DNA of 64,000 nucleotides from Lysobacter sp. Lineage in GTDB: Bacteria > Pseudomonadota > Gammaproteobacteria > Xanthomonadales > Xanthomonadaceae. The notes under the pieces are model-generated. The model was not told where the DNA came from. It was given only the letters and a program-made list of their open reading frames with translations, and did not search any database. The stretch is taken from contig DASQMI010000069.1 of NCBI GenBank assembly GCA_035645555.1, positions 1,388 through 65,387 of the forward strand, written 5' to 3'. The translations under genes and the position numbers were made by a program. Below, piece by piece: positions 56,939 to 59,684 of this stretch; the stretch's first letter is position 1; each line of letters opens with the position of its first letter.

Positions 56939-58429
<1,491 letters not shown>

Positions 58430-58615
58430 GCGGCGAAGCCTCGGCGGTCGGGCGTTCCAGTCTACCCGGTCGGACTTTTCCCAAGCTGCGCCGTGGCTCG
58501 TTCCGGCCGAAAAACAGCGTTGCTGCGCTGGGCCGCGGCGACGCCGCTACGCACACTGTGCCTGCCGGCCGCACCCGCCGGGAAGGGAAGCCAACACCGA
58601 CCAAGGAGAACCCGC

Positions 58616-58942
58616 ATGAACACGATCAAGTCGCTGCTGCTGTCCATCGCGCTCGCTTCGCTGTCGTTCGCCGCGCTGGCGGCCGAGAAGGTCAACATCA
58701 ATACCGCCGATGCCGCCACTATCGACCGCGTGCTGCTCAACATCGGCCCCGCCAAGGCGCAGGCGATCGTCGCCCACCGCAAGGCCCACGGTCCGTTCCG
58801 CAGCCTGGAGCAGCTGGCGATGGTGAAGGGTGTCGGCCTGAAGACGGTCGAGAAGAACCGCGACCGCATCGTGCTCGGCGCGGCGCCGGCCGCGCGCAGG
58901 CCGGCCACCGCCGCCGCTCCGGCGCGTCCGGCCCGGCGCTGA
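58616..58942 (+). CDS. comEA: ComEA family helix-hairpin-helix DNA-binding protein
   Basis: AGGAG RBS; signal peptide; VNINTADAATI; IGPAKAQAIVAHR..HGPFRSLEQL..VKGVG. Confidence 0.92.
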   Translation: MNTIKSLLLSIALASLSFAALAAEKVNINTADAATIDRVLLNIGPAKAQAIVAHRKAHGPFRSLEQLAMVKGVGLKTVEKNRDRIVLGAAPAARRPATAAAPARPARR

Positions 58943-59050
58943 GCGATCACGGCATCGCGCACGGACGCGCGGCCGGAGCACGGGGCGACCCGGACAAGGA
59001 CGTGGCCGCCCGGCTGCAGGGATGCGGCCGGGCGGCAGTGCCCTCGGCGT
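58943..59050 (+). ncRNA. Putative CsrA/RsmA-binding RNA element (3'UTR of comEA)
   Basis: Three CANGGANG motifs (58960, 58995, 59017), two of them in clear hairpin loops, plus two extra GGA; 14-bp stem at 59005-59036. Confidence 0.6.
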
Positions 59051-59090
59051 GCGGCGTAGACTGACGGCAGATCGCACATCCGGTGTCCGC

Positions 59091-59684
59091 GTGCCGTCCG
59101 AGCTTCGATCCAGCGTCATTCCCGCCCACGAATACCGCCGCGAGCGCTGGCGCAACCAGCGTGGCTGGACGCGCGAGATCGCGCGCTGGCCGGAGCAGGG
59201 CGACTGGGACTGGCGGCTGTCCATCGCCGAGGTCGAAGCGCCGGCGCCGTTCTCGCGATTCGACGGCGTCGAACGCGAACTCGTGCTGCTGGCCGGCAAC
59301 GGCCTGCGCCTGCGCTTCGACGACGGCGAGACGCACGAGCTGCTGCCGCCGCACGGCCGGCTGCGCTTCGCCGGCGAACGCGCACTCGAGGGCGAGCCGC
59401 TCGACGGGCTCACCCACGATTTCAACCTGATGTGGCGGCGCGAACGCATCGACGCGCGCCTGTGGCACCGCCCGCTGGTCGGGCCGATGGTGATCTTCGT
59501 CGAGCCCGGCAGCTGCTGGACAGTGCACCTGATCGCGGGCCACGCCGCGTTCGCCGACGGCACGCCTCTGCCTGCGCTCGGCATTGGCGACACCGCGCTG
59601 CTCGCCGCGGGTGCGGAGCGCGCGCGCTTCGTGCTCGACGGCGGCGGCGAGGCGCTGCTGATCGAATTGGCGCCGCGCGCGTAG
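59091..59684 (+). CDS. HutD/Ves family protein
   Basis: ERWRNQRGWTREI; WRLSIAEVE; FSRFDGVERELVLLAG; DFNLM; start approximate; TAGACT at 59057-59062. Confidence 0.88.
   Translation: MPSELRSSVIPAHEYRRERWRNQRGWTREIARWPEQGDWDWRLSIAEVEAPAPFSRFDGVERELVLLAGNGLRLRFDDGETHELLPPHGRLRFAGERALEGEPLDGLTHDFNLMWRRERIDARLWHRPLVGPMVIFVEPGSCWTVHLIAGHAAFADGTPLPALGIGDTALLAAGAERARFVLDGGGEALLIELAPRA

What the first reader, a model, noticed from the sequence alone, without database searches (positions are those of the whole stretch)
58943..59050. Candidate CsrA/RsmA-sponge sRNA in the 3' UTR of comEA
Seen: five GGA in about 62 nt, three matching the high-affinity CANGGANG consensus. CACGGACG is the loop of CGCGC/GCGCG (58956-58971), CAAGGACG lies at 58995-59002, and CAGGGATG caps a 14-bp stem (59005-59036). 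The downstream hutD gene has its own TAGACT -10, so this is not simply its leader. Established: Csr/Rsm sRNAs present ANGGAN in hairpin loops, and an mRNA-3'-derived RsmA sequester (RsmU) is described in Xanthomonas campestris. I recall it maps to a similar locus but cannot verify that. The comEA RBS (CAAGGAGA) is itself CsrA-site-like, suggesting feedback between DNA uptake and the Rsm network.
Basis: partly seen in the sequence, partly recalled or inferred. Interest (0 to 1): 0.7.

Follow-up and report, generated by a model that had tools for sequence, protein, structure and literature searches.

The report
RsmU-type CsrA-binding RNA behind comEA
The GGA-rich stretch after the DNA-uptake gene comEA is this bacterium's copy of RsmU, a small RNA known from Xanthomonas that binds the global regulator RsmA/CsrA, and comparison shows the RNA is conserved across much of the family, not only in Xanthomonas as published.

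Summary

A covariance model built from 17 comEA-downstream regions gives:
- one hit in this genome, at window 58953-59045 (57 bits, E 9e-14);
- hits in 183 of 301 genomes of the family, in 45 of 64 genera (E <= 0.01);
- only weak hits (at most 30.5 bits) outside the family.

All 30 best hits lie directly behind comEA. The published RsmU primers map exactly onto the hits in one genus, which is therefore Xanthomonas.

Structure is supported: 17 of 19 base pairs show compensatory changes across 41 species. Each of the window's five GGA lies at or beside one of the five GGA positions seen across the family. The core GACANGGANGU is present in all 41, partly by construction.

The published GGA mutant of RsmU left this core intact, judging from its primer. 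That may explain why the mutant still bound RsmA.

Verdict: a new, minimal (103 nt) member of a known kind, without a U tract.

The parts
58616..58942 (+). comEA coding sequence (108 aa, signal peptide plus helix-hairpin-helix DNA-binding domain); carrier mRNA of the element
   Evidence: Pfam HHH_3 5.3e-20. An ortholog lies directly upstream of all 30 best model hits.
58578..58609 (+). comEA 5' UTR with two GGA (58581, 58586) about 20 nt upstream of the Shine-Dalgarno CAAGGAGA (58602-58609). Possible CsrA site pair; inference only.
   Evidence: Sequence. GGA-containing stretches upstream of a CAAGGAG-type Shine-Dalgarno recur in relatives.
58953..59045 (+). RsmU-family RNA module, taken as the extent of the covariance-model match. 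The whole 3' UTR runs from 58943.
   Evidence: R1 hit G000:C69:60340-60432 = window 58953-59045, 57.2 bits, E 8.9e-14, the only hit in this genome. Single copy by blastn.
58956..58971 (+). Hairpin 1: CGCGC / GCGCG with loop ACGGAC (GGA at 58963-58965)
   Evidence: MFE fold. All 5 pairs of this helix show compensatory changes. GGA lies in this loop in 37 of 41 species.
58975..58977 (+). GGA in the linker between hairpins 1 and 2. It is partly paired in the MFE fold of this sequence.
   Evidence: A GGA lies in the homologous linker in 32 of 41 species.
58981..58992 (+). Hairpin 2: CGGG / CCCG with loop GCGA. It has no GGA in the loop here, unlike the GGCAGGAAGCC form of Xanthomonas-type members. 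A GGA (58992-58994) straddles its 3' end.
   Evidence: alignment.
58993..59003 (+). Core GACAAGGACGT, present in every aligned member. It matches the CsrA SELEX consensus ACARGGAUGU in 9 of 10 positions. Proposed main CsrA site.
   Evidence: ACA.GGA.GT is identical in 41 of 41 aligned species, although the seeds were picked by this motif. The motif occurs behind comEA in 17 loci from 25 family genomes, against about 0.005 per locus expected by chance (expectation is my estimate). SELEX consensus cited in PMC4347634.
59005..59036 (+). Terminal 14-bp GC-rich hairpin with GGGA loop (GGA at 59020-59022). It is homologous to the RsmU terminator stem, but no U tract follows here.
   Evidence: 12 of the 14 pairs of the two helices that make up this stem show compensatory changes. 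G.U pairs fit only the + strand. GGA lies in the loop in 31 of 41 species. Longest T run after the stem is 1. No terminator called on the + strand.
59057..59062 (+). TAGACT, a -10-like hexamer upstream of hutD
   Evidence: Sequence. A TA[ACGT]A[ACT]T hexamer, mostly TAGACT, is present in 25 of 36 loci with hutD downstream. There is no consensus promoter call.
59091..59684 (+). hutD-family gene, the conserved downstream neighbour
   Evidence: PF05962 1.8e-47. It lies downstream in 26 of the 30 best-hit loci.

Best explanation
Window 58943-59045 is the 3' UTR of comEA. It is this organism's ortholog of RsmU, the RsmA/CsrA-binding small RNA of Xanthomonas campestris.

Shown here:
- It lies in the same place as RsmU, directly behind comEA on the same strand.
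- It matches a sequence-and-structure model that also hits the primer-defined RsmU of Xanthomonas.
- It is single copy in this genome.
- Its helices are kept by compensatory changes across 41 species.
- Each of its five GGA lies at or beside one of the five GGA positions seen across the family: the hairpin-1 loop, the linker, the hairpin-2 region, the GACANGGANGU core and the terminal-hairpin loop.
- The genome encodes one canonical CsrA.

Inferred by analogy with Xcc:
- The RNA is transcribed from the comEA promoter as part of the mRNA.
- Its 3' end is set or protected by the GC-rich hairpin.
- It is cut out of the mRNA a few nucleotides after the stop codon.
- With five GGA spaced 6-22 nt apart, it binds roughly two CsrA dimers.
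- Binding titrates CsrA away from its mRNA targets in proportion to comEA transcription.
- CsrA binding in turn protects the RNA.

I propose that the core, which matches the SELEX consensus, is the main binding site.
For: RsmU biology comes from PMC7694677. Synteny M20 peptidase <- | comEA -> element -> hutD holds in the best-hit loci: comEA is upstream in 30 of 30 and hutD downstream in 26 of 30.

The CM R1 hits the window at 57.2 bits, E 9e-14, once in this genome. It has hits at E <= 0.01 in 183 of 301 family genomes and 45 of 64 genera. About 155 genomes in 37 genera have E < 1e-8 (my count from the table). Hits are nearly always one per genome. Outside the family there are only weak hits, at most 30.5 bits.

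The published RsmU and XC1332 primers map exactly onto L027, L054, L062, L065 and L066, where R1 scores 69-71 bits. In L027 the RsmU 5' end (GACGCGAGGATGCG) lies exactly 25 nt after the stop, as published.

Structure: 94.7% of cells are paired and 17 of 19 pairs have compensatory changes. None of 500 shuffles reaches this, and slid controls give 32-50% paired.

GGA occupancy is 37, 32, 32, 41 and 31 of 41 at the five positions. A csrA gene is present at 92 bits with a canonical protein sequence. The CANGGANG triple is unique in the genome.
Against: No binding data exist outside Xcc.

The window's copy lacks the U tract of a classical intrinsic terminator. Its 3' end and its separation from hutD are therefore uncertain. 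It is among the shortest members (103 nt, 5 GGA) and scores next to lowest among the 41 aligned members.

Even in Xcc the sponge role is soft. Deletion gave no phenotype, only overexpression did, and a GGA-mutated RNA still bound RsmA and kept the phenotype.

The invariance of the core is partly circular, because the seeds were chosen by a regex for it.
Confidence: 0.78

Rival explanations
1. The element acts mainly in cis. It would be a CsrA-bound 3' UTR that, perhaps together with GGA sites in the 5' UTR, controls stability or translation of the comEA mRNA itself. Any released fragment would be a by-product, not a trans-acting sponge.
For: The element is strictly linked to comEA in every genome examined. 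[quoted passage not shown] GGA-containing stretches upstream of the Shine-Dalgarno recur in comEA 5' UTRs.
Against: In Xcc the 77-nt fragment accumulates about five-fold above the mRNA (RPKM 5188 against 997, Table S3). Its overexpression in trans gives part of the rsmA-mutant phenotype. The 3' UTR deletion had only a minor effect on the mRNA. This reading does not exclude the sponge reading.
Confidence: 0.3
2. It is the leader of hutD, or an intergenic spacer of a comEA-hutD operon. The hairpin and GGA sites would then regulate hutD, for instance by attenuation or by CsrA control of its translation.
For: No U tract follows the hairpin here. The hairpin ends only 54 nt before the hutD start. 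hutD is the downstream neighbour in 36 of 41 aligned loci. No consensus promoter was called for hutD.
Against: In most relatives a U-tract terminator ends the element. The distance from the element to the hutD match varies from 38 to 956 nt, and a TAGACT-like -10 sits in between. In Xcc the RNA ends at the terminator and depends on the comEA promoter. The GGA sites are not at the hutD ribosome-binding site.
Confidence: 0.08
3. It is only a transcription terminator in G+C-rich DNA, and the GGA triplets are there by chance.
For: Five GGA in 62 nt is common in this genome. By my estimate the CANGGANG triple is only mildly improbable genome-wide, with about 0.13 expected.
Against: The GGA positions are conserved across 41 species in about 30 genera, while the stems around them vary by compensation. 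The core is identical in all of them. The Xanthomonas member binds RsmA experimentally.
Confidence: 0.03
4. It is a copy of a dispersed REP-like palindromic repeat with GGA loops, of the kind that lodges behind terminators in related bacteria.
For: A few genomes in two genera give extra weak R1 hits.
Against: The element is single copy in this genome by CM and by blastn, where no other match exceeds 22 nt. There is one strong hit per genome across the family, always behind comEA.
Confidence: 0.01

Closest known systems
RsmU (sRX061S/L) of Xanthomonas campestris pv. campestris 8004 (Tang et al. 2020, PMC7694677)
   Same: Same locus, the 3' UTR of comEA on the same strand, with an M20 peptidase gene divergent upstream. 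Same 3' module: a GGA-loop hairpin, the GACAAGGACGU core and a GCC..CCGGGCG terminal hairpin with GGA in the loop. Both are matched by one covariance model.
   Different: The organism belongs to a different genus of the family. The 3' UTR is 103 nt against about 147 nt. The first RsmU hairpin (GACGCGAGGAUGCGUGGCC) has no counterpart. Hairpin 2 has lost its loop GGA. No U tract follows the terminal hairpin. The paper stated that RsmU occurs in no bacteria other than Xanthomonas.
RsmY / RsmZ (Pseudomonas) and CsrB / CsrC (Enterobacteria)
   Same: These are short RNAs that present several A(N)GGA motifs in hairpin loops and linkers and end in a terminator hairpin. RsmY and RsmZ are of similar size and GGA count.
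   Different: There is no sequence or model match to any Rfam Csr/Rsm family. Those RNAs have their own GacA/UvrY-dependent promoters. This one is embedded in an mRNA 3' UTR and, in Xcc, depends on the comEA promoter.
mRNA-embedded CsrA titrators, such as the flaA mRNA of Campylobacter jejuni (PMC4894983)
   Same: A protein-coding mRNA carries the CsrA sites, so transcription of one gene sets how much CsrA is free.
   Different: Those sites lie in the 5' UTR and no stable fragment is released. Here the sites lie in the 3' UTR and, in Xcc, a processed small RNA accumulates.

Membership tests
RsmU (comEA 3' UTR-derived RsmA-binding sRNA) | Lies in the 3' UTR directly downstream of comEA, on the same strand | tested here: met
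   comEA is 58616-58942 and the element 58943-59045. The same arrangement holds in all 30 best-hit loci.
RsmU (comEA 3' UTR-derived RsmA-binding sRNA) | Sequence and structure homology to the Xcc RsmU | tested here: met
   R1 scores 57.2 bits, E 9e-14 in the window. The same model scores 69-71 bits on the loci where the published RsmU primers map exactly. BLAST-level identity is low, which fits the paper's failure to find it outside Xanthomonas.
RsmU (comEA 3' UTR-derived RsmA-binding sRNA) | Several GGA motifs exposed in loops or single-stranded stretches | tested here: met
   There are five GGA. Two lie in hairpin loops, one in the largely unpaired core, one in the linker and one at a helix junction. 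All lie at or beside positions where GGA is frequent across the family.
RsmU (comEA 3' UTR-derived RsmA-binding sRNA) | Ends in a rho-independent terminator (positions 78-117 of sRX061L) | tested here: inconclusive
   The homologous 14-bp hairpin is present, with covariation. No U tract follows, and the scan calls no terminator on the + strand.
RsmU (comEA 3' UTR-derived RsmA-binding sRNA) | Cotranscribed with comEA and processed into a stable small RNA | not testable with these tools
No consensus promoter lies inside the UTR, which is compatible with cotranscription.
RsmU (comEA 3' UTR-derived RsmA-binding sRNA) | Binds RsmA/CsrA, and overexpression mimics loss of rsmA | not testable with these tools
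   Only the partner could be checked. One csrA gene is present (PF02599, 92 bits) with a canonical protein.
Classical Csr/Rsm sponge sRNAs (CsrB, CsrC, RsmX/Y/Z, RsmV/W) | Match to a curated family model | tested here: not met
   cmscan against Rfam 15 found no Csr/Rsm family, even at E <= 10 on the window. It found nothing at gathering score on five loci, including Xanthomonas.
Classical Csr/Rsm sponge sRNAs (CsrB, CsrC, RsmX/Y/Z, RsmV/W) | Independent gene with its own promoter | tested here: inconclusive
   No sigma-70-like site lies in 58400-59200. A consensus scan is weak evidence in this organism. In Xcc the RNA depends on the comEA promoter. No GacA box was searched for.
REP-like dispersed palindromic repeats | Many copies per genome | tested here: not met
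   There is one copy by CM and by blastn.

The most novel reading that the evidence does not exclude
RsmU would be an ancient 3' UTR RNA of the whole family (Xanthomonas, Luteimonas and, by inference, Xylella-, Stenotrophomonas- and Lysobacter-type genera), not a Xanthomonas invention.

Its functional heart would be the core GACANGGANGU just 5' of the terminal hairpin. Judging from the published primer, this one GGA site was left intact in the 'all-GGA' mutant sRX061LM. That would explain why the mutant still bound RsmA and kept its phenotype.

Together with GGA sites in the comEA 5' UTR, the comEA mRNA would be both a target and a titrator of CsrA. This would couple DNA uptake to the Csr network across the family.
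Probability: 0.35. Interest if true: 0.65.

Novelty: new member of a known kind. Interest (0 to 1): 0.5.

Why it matters
For years no RsmA/CsrA antagonist RNA was known in xanthomonads. RsmU (2020) was the first, and it was reported as confined to Xanthomonas.

The family-wide conservation found here gives a candidate CsrA antagonist to many other genera, including environmental, biocontrol and opportunistic ones. It also provides a covariance model and a seed alignment that could become a curated RNA family.

It singles out one core site, apparently unmutated in the published mutant, as the first thing to test in order to resolve the puzzling mutant result in the original paper.

The strict linkage to comEA raises a question that can now be tested: why is CsrA titration tied to a DNA-uptake gene?

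Tried and rejected
- Rfam 15 cmscan at E <= 10 on the window, and at gathering score on five loci including Xanthomonas, gave only chance hairpin matches (miRNA, VA RNA). No family fits.
- The sigma-70 promoter and intrinsic-terminator scan found nothing on the + strand.
- Plain GGA density as a statistic was rejected, because it is common in this genome.
- A REP-like repeat was rejected, because the element is single copy.
- Extra R1 hits in some genomes of two genera score only 25-31 bits. They look like noise or unrelated terminators and were not pursued.
- My first pass over the genome-search loci ignored that minus-strand loci are not reoriented. It was redone.
- Literature searches for RsmU together with other genera of the family, and for comEA with CsrA, found no prior report outside Xanthomonas in the held library.
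- The organism's name could not be established. ComEA is 66-72% identical to named Luteimonas, Thermomonas and Pseudoxanthomonas records.

Full report
**1. What is in the sequence**

The window is 71% G+C. It lies in a 2.6 Mb genome of the family that holds Xanthomonas, Luteimonas and Thermomonas.

- comEA is 58616-58942 (+). It encodes 108 aa and matches Pfam HHH_3 at 5e-20.
- An M20 peptidase gene lies divergently upstream, at 56939-58429 (-).
- A hutD-family gene starts near 59091 (PF05962, 2e-47).

- GGA at 58963, 58975, 58992, 58998 and 59020.
- CACGGACG at 58960, CAAGGACG at 58995 and CAGGGATG at 59017.
- Hairpin CGCGC/GCGCG at 58956-58971 with loop ACGGAC.
- A 14-bp stem at 59005-59036 with loop GGGA.

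A further small hairpin lies at 58981-58992. The 103-nt RNA folds to -63.2 kcal/mol, with z = -3.5 against shuffles. The + strand contains a G.U pair that would be a mismatch on the other strand.

**2. Is it more than chance?**

Raw GGA density is not remarkable. There are 14 places in the window with at least 5 GGA in 62 nt, and places with 7-9 in 70 nt elsewhere in the genome.

Three CANGGANG within 70 nt occurs nowhere else in the genome on either strand. My Poisson estimate is about 0.13 such clusters expected genome-wide, so the statistic alone is only suggestive.

**3. The known RNA**

PMC7694677 (Tang et al. 2020) describes RsmU (sRX061) of X. campestris pv. campestris 8004:
- It begins 25 nt after the stop codon. 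The last 40 nt of the long form are a terminator.
- It depends on the comEA promoter.
- It binds RsmA, but not Hfq, in EMSA, and binds RsmA in co-IP.
- It is undetectable in an rsmA mutant.
- Overexpression reduces virulence, the hypersensitive response and swarming. Deletion has no phenotype.

The authors state that BLAST finds it at over 90% identity in all Xanthomonas "but in no other bacteria".

**4. Comparison with relatives**

I took the comEA loci of 40 related genomes, reoriented them and read the DNA after the stop codon.

In 17 loci from 25 family genomes, comEA is followed by a GGA-rich stretch that contains [GT]ACA.GGA.{1,2}GT a few nucleotides before a GC-rich hairpin. I estimate the chance expectation at about 0.005 per locus. 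One of the 17 (L004) is a named Luteimonas salinisoli record.

An alignment of the 17 (A1) gave a consensus with a 5' GGA-loop hairpin and the terminal hairpin. 14 of its 19 pairs carry compensatory changes.

A covariance model built from it (R1) was searched in whole genomes:
- In the window's own genome it has one hit, at window 58953-59045 (57.2 bits, E 9e-14).
- In the family it hits 183 of 301 genomes and 45 of 64 genera at E <= 0.01. About 155 genomes in 37 genera have E < 1e-8 (my count from the table). Hits are almost always one per genome.
- In 301 genomes drawn from the order, every hit outside the family is weak, at most 30.5 bits.

All 30 best-hit loci have comEA directly upstream on the same strand and the M20 gene divergent. 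26 have hutD downstream.

**5. Identity with RsmU**

The primers in the paper's Table S7 give the ends of RsmU. They map exactly on L027, L054, L062, L065 and L066, all from one genus, which is therefore Xanthomonas. R1 scores 69-71 bits there.

In L027 the RsmU 5' end lies exactly 25 nt after the comEA stop, as published. The model therefore describes the 3' three-quarters of RsmU, and the window's element is its ortholog.

**6. Structure and conserved sites**

41 strong hits from 41 species were aligned to the model (A3). On this alignment:
- 94.7% of cells form standard pairs.
- 17 of 19 pairs have changes on both sides.
- None of 500 shuffles reaches these values.
- Sliding the partners gives only 32-50% paired.

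The alignment is fitted to the model, which favours the structure. Frequent G.U pairs fix the strand as that of comEA.

GGA occurs at five homologous positions:

| Position | Species with GGA (of 41) |
|---|---|
| Hairpin-1 loop | 37 |
| Linker | 32 |
| Hairpin-2 region | 32 |
| Core | 41 |
| Terminal loop | 31 |

Each of the window's five GGA lies at or beside one of these positions. In hairpin 2 the loop GGA is lost, and a GGA sits at the junction instead.

The core is (G)ACA-N-GGA-N-GU, with N mostly A/G and C/U. This is the CsrA SELEX consensus RUACARGGAUGU (cited in PMC4347634). One caveat applies: the seeds were picked by this motif, so its invariance in the alignment is partly built in. 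Its enrichment behind comEA is not.

**7. A point about the published mutant**

The paper's sRX061LM, described as having all predicted GGA replaced, still bound RsmA and kept the overexpression phenotype. The authors suggested that other motifs contribute.

The mutagenic forward primer changes four GGA to AAA but ends in ...GCCGACAAGGACGTG. The reverse primer changes the terminator-loop GGA.

Judging from these primers, the core AAGGA, which is the most conserved site in the family, was not mutated. This is read from machine-read supplementary text and should be checked against the original. If it is correct, it gives a simple explanation and a direct experiment.

**8. How it most likely works here**

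- Shown: homology, synteny, structure, the conserved GGA sites and the presence of one canonical csrA gene.
- Inferred from Xcc: transcription from the comEA promoter, release of a roughly 90-100 nt RNA, binding of about two CsrA dimers (GGA spacing 6-22 nt), titration of CsrA, and stabilisation of the RNA by CsrA.

The window's copy is a minimal version. Family 3' UTRs span 98-309 nt with 4-18 GGA, and this one is 103 nt with 5. It has no U tract after the hairpin, as in its congener and a few other genera. Its 3' end may therefore arise from a U-less terminator, or from a hairpin that blocks exonucleases after read-through towards hutD. This could not be resolved.

**9. Rivals**

- A mainly cis-acting role on comEA mRNA is a serious alternative and is compatible with the sponge reading. 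It is favoured by the strict linkage to comEA and by the lack of a deletion phenotype in Xcc. It is disfavoured by the accumulation of the free fragment and by its trans effects.
- A hutD leader is unlikely, given the terminators, the variable spacing and the TAGACT-like -10 in relatives.
- A chance terminator and a REP-like repeat are excluded by conservation and by single-copy status.

**10. Novelty**

RsmU itself is known, so this is a new member of a known kind. What goes beyond the literature I could search is:
- the family-wide distribution, contrary to the stated restriction to Xanthomonas;
- a structural model, since none is in Rfam 15;
- the identification of the conserved core.

Another first-stage note of this scan describes the same architecture behind comEA in a different genome. 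That fits the distribution found here, but it is not independent evidence.

Noticed in passing
window 58469-58484 (degenerate copy); exact copies in, for example, L004:1337, L014:1931, L017:1957, L031:1959, L036:1930: A perfect palindrome GTAGGA-N4-TCCTAC lies in the divergent M20-peptidase/comEA promoter region in 25 of 65 loci, including loci from other families of the order. It sits about 20-30 nt upstream of a TAGAAT/TAGACT -10 of the M20 gene. The window has only a degenerate form (TTGGGAAAAGTCCGAC on the minus strand), and the genome has no exact copy. It looks like an operator for an unknown regulator that could also govern comEA/RsmU transcription.
   Followed up: partly
window 58578-58609 and the comEA 5' UTRs of L009, L013, L016-L020, L027: comEA 5' UTRs often carry a GGA-containing, often hairpin-like stretch (for example GCCGGCAGGAAAGGCCGGC) 20-35 nt upstream of a CACAAGGAG Shine-Dalgarno. 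This is the two-site layout typical of CsrA-repressed mRNAs. A conserved (G)ACACT about 60 nt upstream of the start may be the comEA -10.
   Followed up: partly
PMC7694677, main text against Tables S1 and S7: The text says four GGA motifs were changed to AAU in sRX061LM. The strain table says GGA->AAA, and the primers change five GGA to AAA while leaving CTGGACA and GACAAGGACGTG intact.
   Followed up: partly
window 59037-59056; also L009, L012, L014, L050, L061: In the window's genus and a few others the terminal hairpin is not followed by a U tract, and hutD follows within about 40-100 nt. Most genera have 4-7 T there.
   Followed up: partly
L034 and L037 (another family of the order), first 45 nt after the comEA stop: Outside the family, comEA is followed by CAGAAGGACGAA and a hairpin GGCGCAGGGAAGCGCC. 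These are two CsrA-like sites that R1 does not detect. They may be a reduced or independent analogue.
   Followed up: no
L003 (Thermomonas sp. S9), L021, L022, L028, L030: Some family members have reduced forms. These are a single GGA-loop hairpin (GGGGCAGGACGCCCC) or only the terminal hairpin with a GGA loop, without the exact core.
   Followed up: no
G011, G090, G141, G016 (two genera of the family): These genomes give 2-6 R1 matches each, and the extra ones score only 25-31 bits.
   Followed up: no
window 58515-58530, minus strand: The scan calls a terminator-like hairpin plus T run (CAGCGCAGCAACGCTG TTTTTCGG) on the minus strand inside the M20/comEA intergenic region. It lies upstream of the putative M20 promoter, and its meaning is unclear.
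   Followed up: no
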